Shown here: one piece after another, positions 2,709 to 57,758 of the stretch
Numbering within the stretch: the first letter of the stretch is position 1
Layout: each line of letters starts with the position of its first letter
Sequence record: NC_009704.1
Direction: 5' to 3' (one strand)
Length of the DNA: 58,679 bases
Source: a plasmid
The notes under the pieces: generated by a model
What the model was told of the DNA's origin: nothing
The model's database searches: none
The model's input: the letters and a program-made list of their open reading frames with translations, nothing else
Program-made: the position numbers and the translations under genes

Positions 2709-2931
2709 AGTTTACGCCAAAGGAAAAGCTTTAAGGGGTTGCGCCGGAACCGCCTTAAGAGGAAATGCTGGCATTTCTGCGACCTACTGTGAACATCGAG
2801 ACACAGTAATGCTGGCAGTTGGAGCCTCTTCATCTGATTACCTGGTGTTAAATTGCTTGCAAACGTTACCACATGCAATTGCTATCATAATTGCGGCCGG
2901 CGCCGCAGTTGGCCAACACCGATTGCCAGCA
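2709..2931 (+). repeat. Copy A of a ~220-240-bp repeat (direct with copy C, inverted with copy B)
   Basis: Aligns with 39377-39574 apart from a 27-bp insertion. Contains GTAATGCTGGCA-type submotifs. ORFs predicted inside it (2657-3073) are taken to be spurious. Confidence 0.7.
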
Positions 2932-3121
2932 GAACATGACTCAGGTTAGTCTCCGGACGAAACGAAATACTGTCAGAAAGTGGGATTTAGGCTGCAATAG
3001 GTATCATGATGGGGTTGTACACCGGAACCGCCGAAATTTCCGGCGTCATTGGCTTCGGATCATGTTTTACTAATCAAAGTATCCTCTCCTATAGCCCCGC
3101 CGTAGCGGGACGATTTGGTAT

Positions 3122-3289
3122 CTAAAGACCAAGCTTTTTCTTTGTATATTCTATATCTATATAATGAGTCCAATTTGCCTTGTAAAATTCAATCGCGGCT
3201 TCTTCCAATGTGATCAAACCAGCTTCGAATTCTATTTTTACTGATTCATGAAAGCCAGGTATATCAAACGCTTTTTTTCTACGACTCAT
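3122..3289 (-). CDS. Small hypothetical protein (55 aa) downstream of the Cro-like gene
   Basis: ORF found manually (MSRRKKAFDIPGFHESVKIEF...). It is below the 60-aa cutoff of the ORF track. Coding status uncertain. Confidence 0.25.
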   Translation of the reverse strand: MSRRKKAFDIPGFHESVKIEFEAGLITLEEAAIEFYKANWTHYIDIEYTKKKLGL

Positions 3290-3313
3290 ATAATTATCTC
3301 GTTGTTTGTTTAA

Positions 3314-3351
3314 CTTGAGATAATTATAACACTTGTGTTATATAACTCAAG
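3314..3351. promoter_or_regulatory. 38-bp imperfect palindrome containing GTGTTATATA half-sites. A related palindrome lies at 3586-3603.
   Basis: CTTGAGATAATTATAACAC/TTGTGTTATATAACTCAAG. A second site, TATATAACtgttgtGTTATATA, sits in the promoter region of the Cro-like gene. Candidate operators. Confidence 0.35.
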
Positions 3352-3353
3352 TG

Positions 3354-3548
3354 TTATATATGACTTTTAAAGATTTTCGTTTTGCTCGTCAGCATGATCC
3401 AATCGCCATTATCTAATCTCGCAACCTCATAGCCCTTTGAAACTAGATTATTAAACTGTTGAATCGTCTTAATTCCCGCTGCTTTCGCTGCTTTTTCTCG
3501 ATTACCTTCATAGTAATCATTCACCATTTGGACAATAGAAATACGCAT
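3354..3548 (-). CDS. Cro/YdaS-like small DNA-binding protein
   Basis: Inner start at 3548, preceded by AAGAGG. The 64-aa product resembles lambda Cro (…GNREKAAKAAGIKTIQQFNNLVSKG…DGDWIMLT). The ORF track extends to 3650, but that N-terminal extension is unlikely to be real. Confidence 0.45.
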   Translation of the reverse strand: MRISIVQMVNDYYEGNREKAAKAAGIKTIQQFNNLVSKGYEVARLDNGDWIMLTSKTKIFKSHI

Positions 3549-3927
3549 AATTACCTCTTGTAAATAACATTTAGAGTATATAACTGTTGTGTTATATATC
3601 AAGTCATAAAACCACTCCAATGGGAGCGATAGGTATAATGATTTATGCATAGCACCTTTCTCTGGCGTAAAACGTTTTGAACCTGGATTTTGCTCGCCAC
3701 TCTCACTCTAAAAACTGTGTTTGTTATCCCTGACTTTTCTCTAAGTTAGGGTAGTTATTGGTAGAAATAAGGTAGAGGACATTTAGCTGCTCTGGAAAGC
3801 AGGCTACATGCGGGTTACAAAATACAGAGCGCGACGCAATTACGAACTTTTTAGCCTTATTTCAATCGATTTTTCAATAAAAAAGCTCACAGGAGTGAGC
3901 TAATTCATAACTTATTGAACCAGACAG

Positions 3928-5555: not shown

Positions 5556-5567
5556 GTTTAGCTAAAC
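5556..5567. promoter_or_regulatory. KorA operator (OA) GTTTAGCTAAAC
   Basis: Exact match to the RK2 KorA operator consensus. Lies 21 bp from a KorB operator and about 70 bp upstream of trbA. Confidence 0.75.
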
Positions 5568-5587
5568 AATTTCCATAAATCAATAAC

Positions 5588-5601
5588 TTTAGCGGCTAAA
5601 A
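5588..5601. promoter_or_regulatory. KorB operator (OB) TTTAGCGGCTAAA
   Basis: Exact 13-bp RK2 OB consensus TTTAGC(G/C)GCTAAA, 33 nt upstream of trbA. Confidence 0.8.
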
Positions 5602-16986: not shown

Positions 16987-17466
16987 ATGAAAAACTGGTA
17001 TCTGTTATCATACAAATATGGACAGGTTAACAGAGTTCAATTTGGTTTAGATAGATTAGGCGTTAATAGTTTCAGCCCAAGTATACAGGTGAAAAAAGTT
17101 AGATCTGACAGCGGAACTATACGCCTTGTAAATGAACCGATGTTTCCTACATATTTATTTGTAGAGTTTGATATTGAGTCAATACATACAACAACAATAA
17201 GTTCAACACTTGGCGTAAATTACTTTGTCAAGTTCGGAACAGAACCAAAACCAATTCCGTTATCACTAATACACCAACTAATGAATAGGTCTGAATGTAG
17301 TAGTCAAAGAAATGAAGAAATCGATGAAATAGCTACTATCCCAGATAAAAAATTACGCTGTGCTTTATTTATTAAGTTGATAACACAGATACCAGATAGT
17401 TTTGAACAAAATTCATTAATTAAAACTCATCATTTACCAGCTACACATCAAACATTATCTAGCTAA
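16987..17466 (+). CDS. RfaH/NusG-paralogue transcription antiterminator with a divergent C-terminal domain
   Basis: The N-terminal domain is near-identical in pattern to E. coli RfaH (WYLL.YK.GQ...EPMFPTYLFVEFD.ESIHTTTISSTLGVNYFVKFG). The C-terminal 60 aa are unlike the KOW domain. Confidence 0.7.
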   Translation: MKNWYLLSYKYGQVNRVQFGLDRLGVNSFSPSIQVKKVRSDSGTIRLVNEPMFPTYLFVEFDIESIHTTTISSTLGVNYFVKFGTEPKPIPLSLIHQLMNRSECSSQRNEEIDEIATIPDKKLRCALFIKLITQIPDSFEQNSLIKTHHLPATHQTLSS

Positions 17467-26004: not shown

Positions 26005-27261
26005 ATGAAAAAATTTAAAAAAGGGTTGGCGGCGATATCAGGGCAAACAATCGCTTTAATTGCTGGCCTAATTGTACTGGCAACAATTACCGTACCGGCA
26101 GTGAATCTGCTTCAACGTGACCAGTCATACAGCGTGGCGGCGAGTCACGCTAATCGTGTAGAGAAAGCCGTTAATAAATATATTCTTGAACAATCCGCTA
26201 TTGTTGGTGCGGGATCTACAGCCAGTAGTCCTTATACTATTGATGTTCCGTTGTTAATCAGTAAAGGGTATTTGCCTAGTGGCTTTGCCGCACAAAATAA
26301 TTTCTCAAGTACCTATAAAACGCTAGTTTTCCAACCTTCGACGCAAAAATTCCATAGCATGACCTTTCTTGATGGGGGAACTCAGCTAAGCATGAGCGCT
26401 GCCAGGAAGTTTGCGACACGAATTGGTGATAGTGGTGGCGTCATTGAAAACGGGGTTGCCAATGGCGTACAGGGCTTATGGAGCGAAAACCTATCAGCAT
26501 TCGGGGGGTTTAATCCAGGCGATGGCCATGTCGTGATCGCGGGGTTCTTCTCAAATGGCTCTGTGGTAAACGAGTATTTGTACCGTAAAGCCGTGCCTGG
26601 TCATCCAGAGCTTAATACTATGAGTACAGCGCTAAATATGGGCGCAAATGATATCAACGCCGTTCGTGATCTCAATGCGGCAGGTAATGCCGTGGTTCAA
26701 GGCAATATTACAGCAGGGAACACCGTTACGGCCACCGGTACAGTTAAAGCCGCTACCACGGACACAAGCGGAGAGACGTATACCGGCGGCTGGTTTCGAA
26801 CAAGGGGTGATACAGGTTGGTACTCTGAAAAGTGGGGCGGCGGTTGGCATATGACCGATGGAACTTGGCTAAGAGCGTATGGCGGTAAATCAATCTATAC
26901 CGCAGGTATTGTGCAAGCGGCAACGTTCCAGCCTGGGCAGGTAAGTGTTGTTAACACAGCATGTCCTGAAAGCGGGCGTATAAGTCGTGATGCGACTGGA
27001 GCCATACTGAGCTGTCAATCCGGTGTGTGGGCCACCAGTGGGAAAGTAGTGGTTATCAACGGCTATAACCCTACATGCCCTGCCAATAAAATTCCCGTGG
27101 CGCGCTATTGGACACAGGCAGGGGGAAGTAATTACGGCGATTATTGCTCACTACAAACAGGGTGGGCGGGAGTAACAACACCGAGTTGTGAGTCGTGTGC
27201 AAATTGGGAAAAGTGTCATATGGTGTACTCCCAAACTTGGTCTGCCACAGCTTGTAGCTGA
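26005..27261 (+). CDS. pilV: PilV-like minor pilin/adhesin
   Basis: AGGTGG ribosome-binding site before the ATG at 26005. Prepilin-like N-terminus KKGLAAISGQTIALIAGLIVLA. Large Gly-rich C-terminal domain. Confidence 0.5.
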   Translation: MKKFKKGLAAISGQTIALIAGLIVLATITVPAVNLLQRDQSYSVAASHANRVEKAVNKYILEQSAIVGAGSTASSPYTIDVPLLISKGYLPSGFAAQNNFSSTYKTLVFQPSTQKFHSMTFLDGGTQLSMSAARKFATRIGDSGGVIENGVANGVQGLWSENLSAFGGFNPGDGHVVIAGFFSNGSVVNEYLYRKAVPGHPELNTMSTALNMGANDINAVRDLNAAGNAVVQGNITAGNTVTATGTVKAATTDTSGETYTGGWFRTRGDTGWYSEKWGGGWHMTDGTWLRAYGGKSIYTAGIVQAATFQPGQVSVVNTACPESGRISRDATGAILSCQSGVWATSGKVVVINGYNPTCPANKIPVARYWTQAGGSNYGDYCSLQTGWAGVTTPSCESCANWEKCHMVYSQTWSATACS

Positions 27262-27278
27262 TTAGTCCGTTATCCGCA

Positions 27279-27306
27279 CCGACACAACCTGTGTCGGTAT
27301 ATATTC
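27279..27306 (+). terminator. Rho-independent terminator after pilV
   Basis: CCGACACA-acc-TGTGTCGG followed by a T-rich tract. Confidence 0.6.
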
Positions 27307-27494
27307 CTATTACTCATCGCTTTAAACGAGATTAAAGGTGAACATTCAATACCTAATGACTAGGGTTAAATATTTAGCTATAGAGTTAATCCAACCCAAA
27401 TTATTAGCCCCCATCTTATTGATTATGCTTATTCTGATATTTACTTTATCAATTTGGATAAACATGCTATTAGAATAATTTTCACGAGGAAATA

Positions 27495-30335: not shown

Positions 30336-30467
30336 TAACTCATCAAAAAAACACTCATTACAGAGTAACAAGCTAGACAACACACAGCAAAATGCTATCA
30401 TAACAACAAATTAGCTTTTAATTAATTAAAGCAAATCACAGATATGAAAGCATATATGGAGTGATGA

Positions 30468-30716
30468 ATGGGCCAACTGACCATCCGTACAACACCAGAA
30501 CAAGAAGCTTTGATTGCAAAGGTACAAGCGCTTAGTGGAGAAAAAACCGCAAGTAAAACGCTTATTGCTGCGCTTTACGAATTCGAACCCAATAGAGCAA
30601 AGATTAGGGAGTTACAGAAAAAAATTGAAGCATTAGAGAATGACTTTGATAATTTAAAAAGTGTTGTTGTCAATTACCAAAATAGTCAGAAAGCCCTCTT
30701 AAATATCAATATTTAA
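30468..30716 (+). CDS. Ribbon-helix-helix-like DNA-binding protein with a coiled-coil tail
   Basis: N-terminus LTIRTTPEQEALIAKVQALSGEKTASKTLIAAL resembles the RHH fold. Confidence 0.35.
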   Translation: MGQLTIRTTPEQEALIAKVQALSGEKTASKTLIAALYEFEPNRAKIRELQKKIEALENDFDNLKSVVVNYQNSQKALLNINI

Positions 30717-31144: not shown

Positions 31145-31149
31145 TTTCT

Positions 31150-31394
31150 ATTGATGGCATTTTTCAGCATCCGGAGCAGTACCAGGATAGTGTTATGCTG
31201 GCAATCGGTGCTGGCCAGCTGCGGCGTCAGTTTCAATTATGATAGCAATTACCGGTTGCAACATTTGCCAGCAATTTAATATCAGGTAATCAGCTGAAGA
31301 AGATACAACTGCCAGCATTACGGTGACTCAATGCTCGCTGCCGGTCGCAGAAATGCCAGCATTTCGCCTTAAAGACTTTCCTTTGGCGTGAAAC
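31150..31394 (-). repeat. Copy B of the ~240-bp repeat, inverted relative to copies A and C
   Basis: Its reverse complement aligns with 39377-39620 at about 90% identity along the whole length. Confidence 0.8.
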
Positions 31395-34053: not shown

Positions 34054-34066
34054 TCTGATTAAATCC

Positions 34067-34115
34067 TAGTATACTAGACGTTATTGACTGGTAACATAAT
34101 GGGAGTATACTAGAC
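34067..34115 (+). promoter_or_regulatory. Promoter with two TAGTATACTA palindromic operators (copy 1)
   Basis: -35 TTGACT (34084-34089), 16-bp spacer, -10 TATACT (34106-34111). Operators at 34067-34079 and 34104-34115. Confidence 0.55.
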
Positions 34116-34119
34116 AAAT

Positions 34120-34209
34120 ATGTCCAGTAGAAGAGAGTTGGTGACGGCACTACAGGCCATAGCAAACAGTAAAGGATGGACGTTTGAGACGTTGGCTGTT
34201 CGATGTTAG
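34120..34209 (+). pseudogene. Truncated (29-aa) paralogue of the 34854 HTH gene
   Basis: MSSRRELVTALQAIANSKGWTFETLAVRC* aligns with the first 29 aa of the 64-aa protein at 34854, then stops. Confidence 0.45.
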
Positions 34210-34786: not shown

Positions 34787-34800
34787 TATGATTAAAACCC

Positions 34801-34849
34801 TAGTATACTAGACATTATTGACGGGTAAGAAAACAGGAGTATACTAGAC
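34801..34849 (+). promoter_or_regulatory. Promoter with two TAGTATACTA operators (copy 2)
   Basis: Operators at 34801-34813 and 34838-34849. -35 TTGACG at 34818-34823. -10 TATACT at 34840-34845. Confidence 0.55.
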
Positions 34850-34853
34850 AAAT

Positions 34854-35048
34854 ATGACTAGCAAGACAAAAGTGATTACGAAACTACAGGCAATAGTAAA
34901 CAGCAAGGGATGGACGTTTGAAGCATTGGCGGTACGTTGGGAAGTTTCACCCCGCCAGATGTCCAGGATTGCAGCCGCAGGTAAGCAGCGGGATATAGAC
35001 GCCGCTATGGGATTGCCAAATAAAGGTGTGACTCATAATGAAAATTGA
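34854..35048 (+). CDS. Small HTH DNA-binding protein (probable autorepressor)
   Basis: 64 aa. HTH-like segment TFEALAVRWEVSPRQMSRI. Preceded by the dual-operator promoter. Confidence 0.45.
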   Translation: MTSKTKVITKLQAIVNSKGWTFEALAVRWEVSPRQMSRIAAAGKQRDIDAAMGLPNKGVTHNEN

Positions 35049-38265: not shown

Positions 38266-38316
38266 GATAGCAGAAAGGCGGCGTTGCGACTCGGTGTGTC
38301 ACCGCTGCCGCATGAC

Positions 38317-38341
38317 TTGGCTTTACGCGGAGACTGCCAAA
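38317..38341 (+). repeat. Direct repeat 5 of 5 (TTGGCTTTACGCGGAGACTGCCAAA)
   Basis: Same family. About 240 bp upstream of the recombinase gene. Confidence 0.7.
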
Positions 38342-38578
38342 CTCGGACGAGTCCCCTACTCCCGCCCTGAATGTCTGCTATAATCCTTTCTGTCTCAGGG
38401 GCTTGCATACCGCCAGAGACAGACAATCGGGGCGTGTCGGGCGCGTTACGCTCCGATTGTCACCCTTTTTTACTTGGCTTTTCCCCCCTATAGCGAAAAC
38501 TCCCAACCGTTCCGATTTTTATCGGGTATTTATTGTGATCGTACATCGACCTGAATTGCGTCAAAATAGTCTCATTGA

Positions 38579-39370
38579 GTGCAAATTGCGGATAATGAAA
38601 TGTCGAGCATCATCCCTCACGATTTGGGGCAGATTTCACGTAGCGCGATCCGCGCACCGGCCCCGCTGTTTAGTTACGGTCATGCCCTGGCACTGCGTGA
38701 AAAAGTGCTGGCCTCCGGTGATGCGGAATTGCCGCTCTATCTGCTGGCCCCCGAAGTCACAGTGTTACTTTCCTATCTGCCTGACTTGCGGCAACGGCTG
38801 CTGATCGAAACCTTGTGGAACACCGGCGCACGATTAAATGAAGCGCTGGCCCTGACGCCAGCCTGTTTTCACATCGAGGGCGACTCGCCGTTTGTGGTAC
38901 TGAAGACACTGAAGCAACGGCAAAAAGGACGGGGCCGCCCGAAAGAGGGCCAGACACTGAAACGCATCGTGCCGCTGCTCGATGAAAACTATGTGCGCCT
39001 GGTACACGAATACCTGGCTACGTTTCGGCCCAAGAAATATGCACCGCTGTGGGTGAACGAGCACGGCGACACCATCAGTGATGAAACCCCGCGCACCTGG
39101 TTACGTGCTGCTGTGACACGCGCAAACCGTGACAGTGTAACGTTTAGTCTGCCGGTGATCACCCCGAAAACCTTTCGGCACTCGTTCGCCATGCATTTAG
39201 TGCAAAGCGGTGTGGCCTTTAAAGTGGTGCAAACCTTCATGGGCCACAAGGACGCCGCCAGTACCGAAGTGTATACGCGAATATTTGCGCTGGATGTGGG
39301 GGCGCAGTATGGGGTGAAGTTCAGTATGGCAGCGGCTGATGCAATGGCACTGGTGCGCCGTAGGTCTTGA
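38579..39370 (+). CDS. Tyrosine recombinase (short, FimB/FimE-like architecture)
   Basis: Box I ...TGARLNEALAL. Box II TFRHSFAMHLVQSG...GHKDAASTEVYTRI (the R, H-x-x-R and Y residues). The start may be internal. Confidence 0.75.
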   Translation: MQIADNEMSSIIPHDLGQISRSAIRAPAPLFSYGHALALREKVLASGDAELPLYLLAPEVTVLLSYLPDLRQRLLIETLWNTGARLNEALALTPACFHIEGDSPFVVLKTLKQRQKGRGRPKEGQTLKRIVPLLDENYVRLVHEYLATFRPKKYAPLWVNEHGDTISDETPRTWLRAAVTRANRDSVTFSLPVITPKTFRHSFAMHLVQSGVAFKVVQTFMGHKDAASTEVYTRIFALDVGAQYGVKFSMAAADAMALVRRRS

Positions 39371-39376
39371 CGGAAT

Positions 39377-39620
39377 GTTTACGCCAAGGAAAAAACTCTA
39401 AGAGGTAATGCTGGCATTTCTGCGACCGACAACGGGCATTGAGTCACCGTAATGCTGGCAGTTGTATCTTCTTCAGTTGATTACCTGGTATTAAATTGCT
39501 GGCAAATGTTGCAACCGGTAATTGCTATCATAATTGAAACTGGCGCCGCAGCTGGCCAACACCGATTGCCAGCATAACACTATCCTGGTACTGCTCCGGA
39601 TGCTGAAAAATGCCATCAAT
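39377..39620 (+). repeat. Copy C of the ~240-bp repeat
   Basis: Begins 7 bp after the recombinase stop. Submotifs ATGCTGGCA x2, TTGCTGGCA and inverted TGCCAGCAT. Confidence 0.8.
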
Positions 39621-39631
39621 AACTCATATAA

Positions 39632-39652
39632 AAGCCCGGAAAAACCGGGCTT
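39632..39652 (-). terminator. Terminator of traC (AAGCCCGG-aaaaa-CCGGGCTT)
   Basis: GC hairpin followed by T-rich sequence on the minus strand, directly after the traC stop. Confidence 0.6.
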
Positions 39653-39674
39653 GATACTACCAATATATCGACAG

Positions 39675-50412: not shown

Positions 50413-50526
50413 TTACCCCCTAACTCCCATTGAATTAAGCACTAAGGCGGCGGTAGCCAGCCAGCCTCGCAGAGCAAGATTCCCATTGAGTGCCGGAGGC
50501 GCGAATAAGGGAGAGTGAAGATAGAT

Positions 50527-50567
50527 AACCGGCTTGCCGGTTAGCTAACTTCACCTATCTTGCCCTG
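50527..50567 (+). other. oriT: inverted repeat AACCGG-cttg-CCGGTT plus nick region CTTCACCTATCTTG|CCCTG
   Basis: The nick region differs from RP4 oriT (CTTCACCTATCCTG|CCCGG) at 3 positions. Lies between divergent traJ and traK. Confidence 0.7.
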
Positions 50568-57712: not shown

Positions 57713-57724
57713 GTTTAGCTAAAC
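57713..57724. promoter_or_regulatory. KorA operator (OA) GTTTAGCTAAAC in the korA promoter
   Basis: Exact consensus. About 57 nt upstream of the incC start. Confidence 0.75.
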
Positions 57725-57743
57725 TAAGTGCCTAATTCAATCA

Positions 57744-57758
57744 TTTTAGCCGCTAAAA
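57744..57758. promoter_or_regulatory. KorB operator (OB) in the korA promoter
   Basis: TTTTAGCCGCTAAAA, 20 bp from the OA site. This OA+OB arrangement mirrors RK2 korAp. Confidence 0.8.

What the first reader, a model, noticed from the sequence alone, without database searches (positions are those of the whole stretch)
2709..2931. Third copy of the 240-bp repeat next to the replicon and toxin-antitoxin region, with iteron-like GTAATGCTGGCA subrepeats
Copy A is in direct orientation with copy C, 36 kb apart, and inverted relative to copy B.
Homologous or site-specific recombination between A and C would delete the entire trb, pil and island region. Recombination between A and B would invert it.
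Each copy carries 3-4 related 12-mers (gtAATGCTGGCA, cgtAATGCTGGCA, aATTGCTGGCA, and inverted TGCCAGCAT).
This looks like a binding-site array, for example an accessory site set for the recombinase or a centromere or incompatibility-like element.
Basis: seen in the sequence. Interest (0 to 1): 0.55.

Follow-up and report, generated by a model that had tools for sequence, protein, structure and literature searches.

The report
Phased six-box repeat on Yersinia plasmid
The repeat is real: a roughly 250-bp non-coding module, present three times on this Yersinia conjugative plasmid and its close relatives, built from six regularly spaced short boxes that look like protein-binding sites, but its partner protein and function are still unknown.

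Summary
The window is the complete plasmid pYpsIP31758.2. It carries three diverged copies of a ~250-bp unit: A 2710-2979 (+), B 31148-31394 (-) and C 39377-39622 (+). The same three positions are occupied in independently assembled relatives, so this is not an assembly artefact.

The unit is non-coding, has no Rfam match and no sigma-70 promoter pair. I found it only in this narrow Yersinia plasmid family.

They form two triplets with exact 44-bp spacing, 26 bp apart. Boxes are conserved, spacers diverge quickly, and eleven copies show no indel across 224 columns.

- This pattern fits a spacing-locked protein-binding array on double-stranded DNA.
- It is not a RepA iteron set and not a KorB/KorA site; those operators lie elsewhere.
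- It is not Frpo-like: fold z is about -2, against -8.9 for a real Frpo.
- It is not part of the ResD-like recombinase module, which occurs elsewhere without the repeat.
- No inversion or deletion variant was seen.
- Each copy is damaged in some natural plasmid, so no single copy is essential.

Function remains inferred. Interest is moderate.

The parts
2710..2979 (+). Copy A of the repeat unit (the finding). It lies between the RHH-ParE toxin-antitoxin/repA module on its left and small ORFs plus the zeta-toxin operon on its right.
2733..2759 (+). 24-nt insertion specific to A-type copies. It forms a local hairpin (TTAAGGGGTTGCGCCGGAACCGCCTTAA).
2764..2773 (+). Copy A box 1, AATGCTGGCA, inside the 16-bp palindrome GAAATGC-TG-GCATTTC.
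2808..2817 (+). Copy A box 2, AATGCTGGCA, 44 bp after box 1.
2852..2861 (+). Copy A box 3, ATTGCTTGCA (degenerate centre), 44 bp after box 2.
2878..2887 (+). Copy A box 4, ATTGCTATCA, 26 bp after box 3. It contains TGCTATCAT, which looks like an extended -10 element.
2922..2931 (+).
2966..2975 (+). Copy A box 6, AATACTGTCA (degenerate; AATGCTGTCA in the two other A-type copies), 44 bp after box 5.
31148..31394 (-). Copy B, inverted, starting 5 bp after the ssb stop codon. Its boxes are at 31354, 31310, 31266, 31240, 31196 and 31152 (first base of each 10-mer on the + strand).
39377..39622 (+). Copy C, between the recombinase module and the traC terminator. Its boxes are at 39407, 39451, 39495, 39521, 39565 and 39609.
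30391..30403 (+). The only occurrence of the box-4 string TGCTATCATAA outside the repeats. It forms the predicted extended -10 of the promoter of the 82-aa orphan gene (30468-30716) just upstream of ssb and copy B. This is a lead, not a proven part of the element.

Best explanation
Copy A is one of three copies of a non-coding cis-acting module that most likely works as double-stranded DNA. It is a spacing-locked array of six near-palindromic 10-bp boxes (AWTGCYRKCA). The boxes form two triplets at exactly 44 bp (4 x 11 bp) spacing, with 26 bp between the triplets.

Proposed mechanism: a dimeric DNA-binding protein occupies the boxes and builds a higher-order nucleoprotein complex.

Placement: the three complexes sit where backbone transcription units meet variable DNA.
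- A lies upstream of the toxin-antitoxin/repA module and next to a cargo hot spot.
- B and C, inverted to each other, bracket the accessory island, one after ssb and one after traC.

Proposed role: a boundary or roadblock, or an accessory maintenance site. This may be combined with an outward-facing extended -10 promoter in box 4.

Shown here:
- the repeat, the boxes and their phasing;
- boxes conserved, spacers free to change, no indels;
- the unit is non-coding;
- I found it only in one Yersinia plasmid family;
- gene conversion between copies;
- any single copy is dispensable.

Inferred only:
- that a protein binds the boxes;
- which protein. The best candidate is the 82-aa orphan, also found only in this plasmid family, with a weak RHH-like N-terminus at 30468-30716. 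A host factor is equally possible;
- what the complex does.
For: Box architecture: exact 44/44/26/44/44 spacing in B and C, and the same frame in A.

Box enrichment: 23 matches against 3.15 expected, 19 of them inside the copies.

Conservation pattern: boxes vary at 8 of 60 columns, against 63 of 152 elsewhere in the unit (p=8e-5).

Spacing constraint: eleven copies at 76-88% identity align without a single gap over 224 columns. Neighbouring non-coding flanks at 90-97% identity carry 2-3 indels each. So length is constrained while spacer sequence is not.

Box symmetry: box 1 sits in a 7-2-7 palindrome, as expected for a dimeric binder.

Non-coding: variable sites show no 3-nt periodicity (31/25/23), and the ORFs differ or carry stop codons between copies.

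Single-strand structure is not favoured: fold z is -1.6 to -2.6, there is no excess of covariation, and adding a divergent copy adds mismatches.

Conserved placement: the three positions are the same in relatives.

Candidate binder: the 11-mer TGCTATCATAA of box 4 occurs only in the three copies and at the predicted -10 of the 82-aa gene promoter (0.09 matches expected in the window). That box is conserved in all six relatives examined for it. The 82-aa protein, like the repeat, turned up only in this plasmid family, and its N-terminus weakly resembles the RHH antitoxin TacA (E=0.033, below threshold).
Against: - No binding protein is identified. The link to the 82-aa protein rests on one extra motif occurrence (chance about 0.09) and a sub-threshold domain hit. 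The single-sequence AlphaFold model is one long helix and is uninformative.
- Each copy is damaged in some natural plasmid. A is truncated to about 55 bp in L031/L032. B has an internal deletion in L015. C has internal deletions in Y. massiliensis. Any function is therefore redundant or non-essential.
- Orthologous copies are less similar (84-89%) than their flanks (94-97%).
- 44 bp is 4.2 turns of relaxed B-DNA, so the boxes are not strictly on one face of the helix.
- The boxes also pair with each other in a predicted single-strand fold, so that model is not excluded.
- traC has its own good intrinsic terminator before copy C, so a boundary function is not obviously needed there.
Confidence: 0.35

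Rival explanations
1. Neutral or selfish dispersed repeat. The unit is a relic of an old duplication or of a miniature mobile element. It sits in tolerant intergenic DNA, is kept similar by gene conversion, and has no function for the plasmid.
For: - Every copy is found truncated or internally deleted in some natural plasmid.
- The unit evolves faster than its flanks.
- Evolution is concerted: B and C within a plasmid are 92-95% identical, against 88-89% for orthologous copies. B of L036 is a mosaic with A-like stretches.
- All copies lie next to variable DNA.
Against: - Boxes are significantly more conserved than spacers (p=8e-5).
- There are no indels over 224 columns in 11 copies, while the flanks have indels.
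- The positions are fixed and orthologous in all relatives. No polymorphic insertion, terminal inverted repeat or target duplication is present.
- No true copy was found elsewhere: none in 72,556 plasmids beyond Y. massiliensis, none in E. coli genomes or phages, and only chance hits in the genome and metagenome pattern scans.
Confidence: 0.2
2. Folded single-strand element. Two versions were considered:
- a single-strand initiation or promoter signal (ssi/Frpo-like) on the transferred strand, used for priming or for early expression of the toxin-antitoxin/repA genes;
- a structured RNA at the ends of operons.
For: - The unit is an imperfect dyad. RNAalifold draws 54-62 nested pairs, with 96-97% of cells paired.
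- Three pairs show double changes.
- The nick-strand sequence ACTTCACCTATCTTG|CCC is on the + strand. A and C therefore lie in the same sense on the transferred strand. A sits upstream of genes (antitoxin, ParE, RepA) for which that strand is the template.
- The copies adjoin repA, ssb and the TraC-type primase.
Against: - Stability is ordinary: z is -1.6 to -2.6 and MFE about -40 kcal/mol. ColIb-P9 Frpo1 gives z=-8.9 and -102 kcal/mol.
- No -35/-10 pair lies on either arm.
- B is on the other strand.
- Pair-type and double-change counts do not exceed shuffles (273/500 and 444/500).
- By my count, transitions in stems give about 11 wobble-compatible changes against about 9 C·A mismatches, so neither strand is favoured.
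- The more divergent L036 copy adds mismatches only.
- The helices would be 8-14 bp islands separated by roughly 30-nt loops.
- There is no Rfam hit.
Confidence: 0.15
3. Recombination site. The unit is an accessory or crossover site for the neighbouring ResD-like tyrosine recombinase, or a hot spot that drives exchange, inversion or deletion of modules.
For: - Copy C starts 7 bp after the recombinase stop codon.
- CACCGATTGCCAGC around box 5 resembles one arm (CTCCGATTGTCACC, 11/14) of the inverted repeat upstream of the recombinase gene.
- Variable DNA lies between B and C and to the right of A.
- An array of about 250 bp with several sites recalls complex att or res sites (my own knowledge).
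Against: - The recombinase module 38315-39380 is 95.6% identical in Y. ruckeri plasmid NZ_CP084636.1, which has no repeat.
- 14 PLSDB records carry a recombinase 95-99% identical, but the blastn searches with the repeat unit matched no PLSDB plasmid other than Y. massiliensis.
- In L014-L018 a roughly 260-bp segment, carrying a small ORF, separates the gene from C.
- The gene has its own 14-bp inverted repeat at 38422-38461.
- No inversion or deletion variant appears among about 20 contigs.
- Variable DNA does not begin at the repeat edges: it starts about 630 bp from B and about 850 bp from A.
Confidence: 0.1
4. Outward-facing promoter module. Box 4 (TGCTATCAT) is an extended -10 promoter that fires towards the right end of each unit. 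It would make RNAs antisense to ssb (B), to the end of traC (C) and to the small ORFs right of A.
For: - TGnTATCAT is conserved in 10 of 11 copies.
- The same string, paired with a TAGACA -35, is scored as a 10/12 promoter with TG for the 82-aa gene.
- A terminator-like hairpin on the minus strand at 30754-30737 could end an anti-ssb RNA.
Against: - No acceptable -35 lies at 16-18 bp in any copy, so the scan finds no promoter in the units.
- There is no conserved terminator downstream.
- This model does not explain the other five boxes or their phasing.
Confidence: 0.1

Closest known systems
F plasmid sopC centromere (my own knowledge: 12 tandem 43-bp repeats, each with a 7-2-7 inverted repeat bound by SopB)
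   Same: Both have a period of about 43-44 bp. In both, each period carries a short 7-2-7-type palindrome, with spacers that matter less. Both are plasmid-borne and non-coding.
   Different: Here only the boxes repeat, not whole 44-bp units. There are two triplets rather than 12 tandem units, and three dispersed copies. There is no sequence similarity. The only ParA/ParB pair (IncC/KorB) already has OB sites.
Dispersed regulator/centromere arrays such as the omega-binding heptad arrays at three loci of pSM19035, and the CUP repeats of IncN plasmids (my own knowledge)
   Same: Several dispersed copies of a multi-site non-coding array on one plasmid, probably read by one small plasmid protein.
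   Different: Those arrays sit in promoters and control them. Here no promoter pair is found inside the unit, and B and C lie at convergent gene ends. Box sequence and spacing are unrelated.
Frpo/ssi single-stranded DNA promoters of F and ColIb-P9 (PMC11541004 and its supplementary table)
   Same: Repeated non-coding units of about 250-330 nt on a conjugative plasmid, close to ssb. Copy A lies in the right sense on the transferred strand upstream of genes templated by that strand.
   Different: The fold is far weaker (z about -2 against -8.9). There is no -35/-10 in a stem, and no sequence similarity to the ColIb-P9 Frpo sequences is evident. One copy is on the other strand, and two of the three are far from the leading end.
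Iterons and incA-type Rep-binding arrays (my own knowledge)
   Same: Short repeated boxes with spacing in multiples of 11 bp. Copy A is 1.2 kb from repA.
   Different: The Rep here is of the antisense-RNA/pseudoknot-controlled IncFII_repA type. The boxes are 44 bp apart, not contiguous. Two copies are 30-37 kb from the replicon. Copy A is largely deleted in L031/L032.
FitA (RHH antitoxin) operator TGCTATCA-N12-TGATAGCA of Neisseria fitAB (my own knowledge; not tested here)
   Same: Box 4 contains the identical 8-mer TGCTATCA, and the other boxes are one or two changes away. This shows that RHH proteins can read such 8-bp half-sites.
   Different: The organism and spacing differ (44 bp against 20 bp centre to centre). 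No FitB/PIN partner is present. The resemblance may be coincidental.

Membership tests
Frpo/ssi single-stranded DNA promoters | Very stable extended hairpin of the single strand | tested here: not met
   Fold z is -1.6 to -2.6 and MFE is -37 to -41 kcal/mol for the three copies. ColIb-P9 Frpo1 gives z=-8.9 and -101.9 kcal/mol.
Frpo/ssi single-stranded DNA promoters | -35 and -10 hexamers formed in the stem; located upstream of leading-region genes on the transferred strand | tested here: not met
   No promoter pair lies inside any copy. Only A has suitable sense and position. B is on the opposite strand, and C faces the recombinase gene in antisense.
Iterons (Rep-binding repeats) | Tandem 17-22-bp repeats at or next to the origin of an iteron-type Rep | tested here: not met
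   The replicon is of the IncFII_repA type with a PK-repBA leader. The boxes are 10 bp long and 44 bp apart. The copies lie 1.2, 30 and 38 kb from repA. Copy A is lost in L031/L032.
IncP KorB (OB) / KorA (OA) operator and centromere sites | Palindromes TTTAGCSGCTAAA / GTTTAGCTAAAC | tested here: not met
   11 OB-like sites and 2 perfect OA sites are present, and none lies in the repeats.
sopC-like ParB centromere | Array of palindromic boxes at a fixed period of about 43 bp | tested here: met
   The spacing is 44 bp within each triplet, and box 1 is a 7-2-7 palindrome.
sopC-like ParB centromere | A cognate ParA/ParB pair that binds the array | tested here: not met
   Among the annotated genes the only ParA/ParB pair is IncC/KorB, and OB sites for KorB are present elsewhere on the plasmid. 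Binding itself cannot be tested with these tools.
Resolution/recombination site of the ResD-like tyrosine recombinase | The site travels with the recombinase gene, and recombination products occur | tested here: not met
   The recombinase module is found without the repeat in Y. ruckeri. There are no rearranged variants in about 20 contigs. The module has its own inverted repeat at 38422-38461.
XerCD (cer/psi/dif-like) site | An 11-bp XerC arm, a 6-8-bp spacer and an 11-bp XerD arm | tested here: not met
   Read by eye from the sequences. TGGTGTTAAAT matches the XerD arm at 9 of 11 positions, but no XerC arm precedes it at 6-8 bp, and the G is A in window copies B and C. The consensus was recalled from memory.
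MITE / miniature transposon | Terminal inverted repeats, target-site duplication, and copies at non-orthologous sites | tested here: not met
   The unit ends are not inverted repeats and there is no duplication. All copies are at orthologous sites. No true copy was found outside this plasmid family.
Known RNA families (Rfam 15) | A match at the family's gathering score | tested here: not met
   The only matches in the window are traJ-II (50463-50565) and PK-repBA (1567-1687).
Protein-coding gene / small toxin | A conserved reading frame with excess third-position change | tested here: not met
   The frames differ or carry stop codons between copies. Variable sites fall 31/25/23 by phase. By my hand count from the translations, A and C differ in the 41-46-codon frame at 4, 10 and 6 sites in codon positions 1, 2 and 3.
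Intrinsic terminator | A GC-rich hairpin directly followed by a U tract, conserved in all copies | tested here: inconclusive
   A weak candidate is scored in B and C only and none in A. traC has a separate canonical terminator at 39631-39655.

The most novel reading that the evidence does not exclude
The unit is a previously undescribed kind of plasmid cis-element: a spacing-locked, six-box nucleoprotein assembly site. It would be read by an orphan small RHH-like protein (the 82-aa product of 30468-30716) found only in this plasmid family. It would be placed at the three junctions between backbone transcription units and exchangeable DNA, insulating the replicon and transfer operons of a mosaic IncP/IncL-M/IncI-pil plasmid from their neighbours, or acting as an extra pairing or maintenance site.
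Probability: 0.15. Interest if true: 0.6.

Novelty: new variant of a known kind. Interest (0 to 1): 0.4.

Why it matters
If the boxes are bound by a plasmid protein, this would be a compact and testable example of how a mosaic conjugative plasmid marks the borders between its backbone operons and its cargo. The architecture (two phased triplets, three dispersed copies) differs from known centromeres, iterons and operator arrays.

There are also practical consequences:
- The repeat breaks short-read assemblies of these Yersinia plasmids.
- It undergoes gene conversion.
- In principle it could mediate inversion of the 8-kb island or deletion of the 36-kb trb/pil region.

If it has no function, it is still a clear case of concerted evolution of a plasmid repeat.

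Tried and rejected
- Coding hypothesis. I considered a 92-aa ORF in A, 41-aa and 14-aa coupled ORFs, and a type I toxin. Rejected: there is no codon periodicity and the frames differ.
- Sigma-54 promoter (TGGCA...TTGCA). Rejected by hand: the GG-to-GC spacing is 2-3 bp too short in every box.
- Tus Ter site (GTTGCAAC against GTTGTAAC) and IncP nic-like TATCCTG in B/C. Both rejected: neither is conserved across copies.
- LexA, CRP, PurR, Fur, IHF and ArcA boxes. Only partial, non-conserved matches by eye.
- KorB and KorA sites. Rejected.
- RfaH ops element linked to the plasmid's RfaH-like gene. No convincing ops site.
- parC of IncL plasmids next to the homologous recombinase. The sequence is unrelated.
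- Searches for more distant homologues:
  - blastn 'distant' against plasmids with the whole unit and with the core;
  - E. coli genomes and phages;
  - a genome contigs pattern scan, which gave 3 chance hits;
  - a metagenome pattern scan, which gave 3 unrelated tandem repeats.
  None gave a true relative. Relatives came only from exact-protein look-ups of neighbouring genes.
- The Y. frederiksenii plasmid with a 67%-identical ssb has no such unit after ssb.
- The AlphaFold model of the 82-aa protein, made without an alignment, is a single helix and uninformative.
- The PDB and NCBIfam searches of the 82-aa protein gave only coiled-coil noise.

Full report
**What the window is.** The 58,679-bp window is the complete plasmid pYpsIP31758.2 of Yersinia pseudotuberculosis IP31758. 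The size and gene content match the genome paper, which does not mention this repeat.

The plasmid is a mosaic.
- It has an IncP-like backbone: KorA, IncC, KorB, KleE, KfrB/C, TrbA, the trb genes, and traJ-traI-traG-traF-traE-traC. Eleven KorB OB sites and two perfect KorA OA sites are present.
- Its replicon is of the IncFII_repA/IncL-M type, with the PK-repBA pseudoknot leader.
- It carries an IncI-like type IV pilus cluster.
- The oriT nick-strand sequence ACTTCACCTATCTTG|CCC is on the + strand, next to the traJ-II motif. From what is known of RP4, where traK-L-M form the 'leader operon' (my own knowledge), the + strand is the transferred strand. It enters rightwards: traK, the kfr and kor genes, repA, the toxin-antitoxin genes, then copy A.

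**The observation.** Three copies of one unit exist. A is at about 2710-2979 (+), B at 31148-31394 (-) and C at 39377-39622 (+).
- A and C are direct repeats 36,643 bp apart; B is inverted relative to both.
- B and C are 93-95% identical. A is only 76-79% identical to any B or C copy.
- A has a 24-nt insertion near its left end.
- A profile search finds no fourth copy.
- The copies differ from each other, and the same three sites are occupied in the finished Y. massiliensis plasmid and several other assemblies. Collapse or mis-assembly is therefore excluded.
- Short-read contigs of relatives stop inside copy B, as expected for a true repeat.

**Anatomy.** Each unit carries six 10-bp boxes matching AWTGCYRKCA, at unit positions 42, 86, 130, 156, 200 and 244. 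That is two triplets with exact 44-bp spacing, 26 bp apart.
- In B and C the boxes read AATGCTGGCA, AATGCTGGCA, ATTGCTGGCA, ATTGCTATCA, ATTGCCAGCA and AATGCCATCA.
- Each box is a near-palindrome. Box 1 lies in GAAATGC-TG-GCATTTC.
- The degenerate box occurs 23 times in the window against 3.15 expected, and 19 of these lie in the three copies.
- Because the boxes are near-palindromic and the two triplets mirror each other, the whole unit is an imperfect dyad. This is why inverted subrepeats and a rod-like fold appear.

**Distribution.** blastn against 72,556 plasmids finds only the Y. massiliensis plasmid NZ_CP028489.1. E. coli genomes and phages give nothing relevant. Pattern scans of 185,579 reference genomes and of JGI metagenomes give only chance hits or unrelated tandem repeats.

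Relatives were reached through exact-protein look-ups of neighbouring genes. They form a family of roughly 53-76-kb Yersinia plasmids; the source names seen are Y. enterocolitica. All share the three sites.
- Orthologous copies are 84-89% identical, while their flanks are 94-97% identical.
- B and C within one plasmid are more alike (92-95%) than orthologues, and some copies are mosaics. Copies therefore exchange sequence by gene conversion.
- Every copy is damaged somewhere. A is cut down to about 55 bp in L031/L032. B has an internal deletion in L015. C has two internal deletions in Y. massiliensis.
- The B-island-C arrangement is the same in all of the roughly 20 contigs read.

**What it is not.**
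- It is not coding. Frames differ or hold stop codons, and variable sites have no 3-nt periodicity.
- It is not a known RNA family.
- It is not a sigma-70 promoter cassette.
- It is not a KorB or KorA site.
- It is not an iteron set. The Rep is antisense-controlled, and copy A can be lost.
- It is not Frpo-like. The single strands fold with z of -1.6 to -2.6, against -8.9 for ColIb-P9 Frpo1 folded the same way.
- It is not part of the recombinase module. The recombinase is ResD-like: 56% identical to the IncL pOXA-48-type recombinase and about 46% to widespread plasmid 'site-specific integrases'. Its module 38315-39380 is 95.6% identical in a Y. ruckeri MOBF plasmid that lacks the repeat, and the homology ends exactly at the left edge of C. 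In other relatives a roughly 260-bp segment, carrying a small ORF, separates the recombinase from C. The module has its own 14-bp inverted repeat at 38422-38461.

**Structure or binding sites?** RNAalifold draws 54-62 nested pairs, and 96-97% of cells pair. This evidence is weak for four reasons.
- Most paired columns never vary.
- Only three pairs show double changes, each probably a single event. The measures that count pairs or pair types do not exceed shuffles (273/500 and 444/500).
- By my count, transitions in stems give about 11 wobble-compatible and about 9 C·A outcomes, so no strand is favoured.
- The more divergent L036 copy adds mismatches only.

Other features point to double-stranded DNA.
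- Boxes are conserved far better than spacers (p=8e-5).
- Eleven copies at 76-88% identity have no indel across 224 columns, whereas flanking non-coding DNA at 90-97% identity has 2-3 indels per 300-400 bp.
- Conserved boxes, free spacer sequence and fixed spacer length are what a phased protein-binding array predicts.

**Context.** A lies about 300 bp upstream of the RHH-ParE operon, which precedes repA. It sits beside a site that differs in every lineage:
- a 612-bp insertion in the window;
- at least 10 kb of cargo in L007;
- a replacement that truncates A in L031.

B follows ssb by 5 bp. C follows the traC terminator at 39631-39655. B and C are inverted to each other and bracket the accessory island, whose content varies between plasmids.

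**A lead on the partner.** The box-4 string TGCTATCATAA occurs four times in the window: in the three copies, and at the predicted extended -10 of the promoter of an 82-aa gene just upstream of ssb and B. Only 0.09 matches are expected by chance. The box is kept in all six relatives examined for it. The 82-aa protein's only database relatives are on plasmids of this family. Its N-terminus weakly resembles an RHH antitoxin (E=0.033, below threshold). This is suggestive only.

**Verdict.** The best-supported reading is a spacing-locked, six-box protein-binding module on double-stranded DNA, placed at three backbone/cargo junctions (confidence 0.35). Its binder and role are unproven. The rivals are:
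- a functionless repeat homogenised by gene conversion (0.2);
- a folded single-strand signal (0.15);
- a recombination site (0.1);
- an outward-facing promoter (0.1).

The element is new as far as the searched collections and papers show. It is confined to a small plasmid family and is individually dispensable, so interest is moderate.

Noticed in passing
window 38315-39380 (recombinase module) and 38422-38461: A 1.07-kb module carrying a ResD-like tyrosine recombinase is 95.6% identical to one in an unrelated MOBF/MPF_F Yersinia ruckeri plasmid (NZ_CP084636.1). A 14-bp inverted repeat (GACAATCGGGGCGT / ACGCTCCGATTGTC) upstream of the gene is a candidate crossover site.
   Followed up: partly
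window 3010-3622: A 612-bp segment with two small ORFs (55 and 98 aa) is absent from Y. massiliensis and L007. It is flanked by a roughly 16-bp direct repeat, ATAGGTAT(C/A)ATGAT.
   Followed up: partly
L007 10512-20279 (GCA_902169935.1, 76-kb contig): A relative carries at least 10 kb of cargo about 850 bp to the right of copy A. The cargo includes an autotransporter, a polysaccharide lyase family 8 protein, glycoside hydrolases and a PTS component.
   Followed up: no
window 26993-27361: The 3' end of pilV (Shufflon_N domain) and the DNA after it are not homologous between the window and its relatives. No multi-segment shufflon or rci gene is present.
   Followed up: no
window 39631-39655 (- strand): A canonical intrinsic terminator (AGCCCGG-TTTTT-CCGGGCT followed by TTTTATAT; the fold of the 51-nt segment containing it is about -17 kcal/mol) lies between the traC stop codon and copy C.
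   Followed up: yes
window 34061-34205 and 34795-34939: A second, unrelated direct repeat inside the accessory island (145 nt, 79% identical, 734 bp apart).
   Followed up: no
window 16987-17466: An RfaH-like NusG paralogue is encoded in front of the pil operon. No convincing ops element (GGCGGTAGNNT) was found in a suitable leader. The nearest match, GGCGGTAGCCA, is at 50449 beside oriT.
   Followed up: partly
window 30410-30440: A near-perfect AT-rich palindrome (AGCTTTTAATTAATTAAAGC) lies in the leader of the 82-aa gene. It could be that protein's own operator.
   Followed up: no
L012 5160-5290 (metagenome contig Ga0268299_1004642): Five or six tandem repeats of about 22 bp carrying the same 12-mer TAATGCTGGCAG lie in a chromosomal-looking intergenic region. 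I judged this a chance resemblance.
   Followed up: partly
window 5556-5600, 57713-57757 and nine other sites: A full IncP-type regulatory set is present: 11 KorB OB sites and 2 perfect KorA OA sites. It includes OA-OB pairs at the trbA/trbB and korA promoters.
   Followed up: yes
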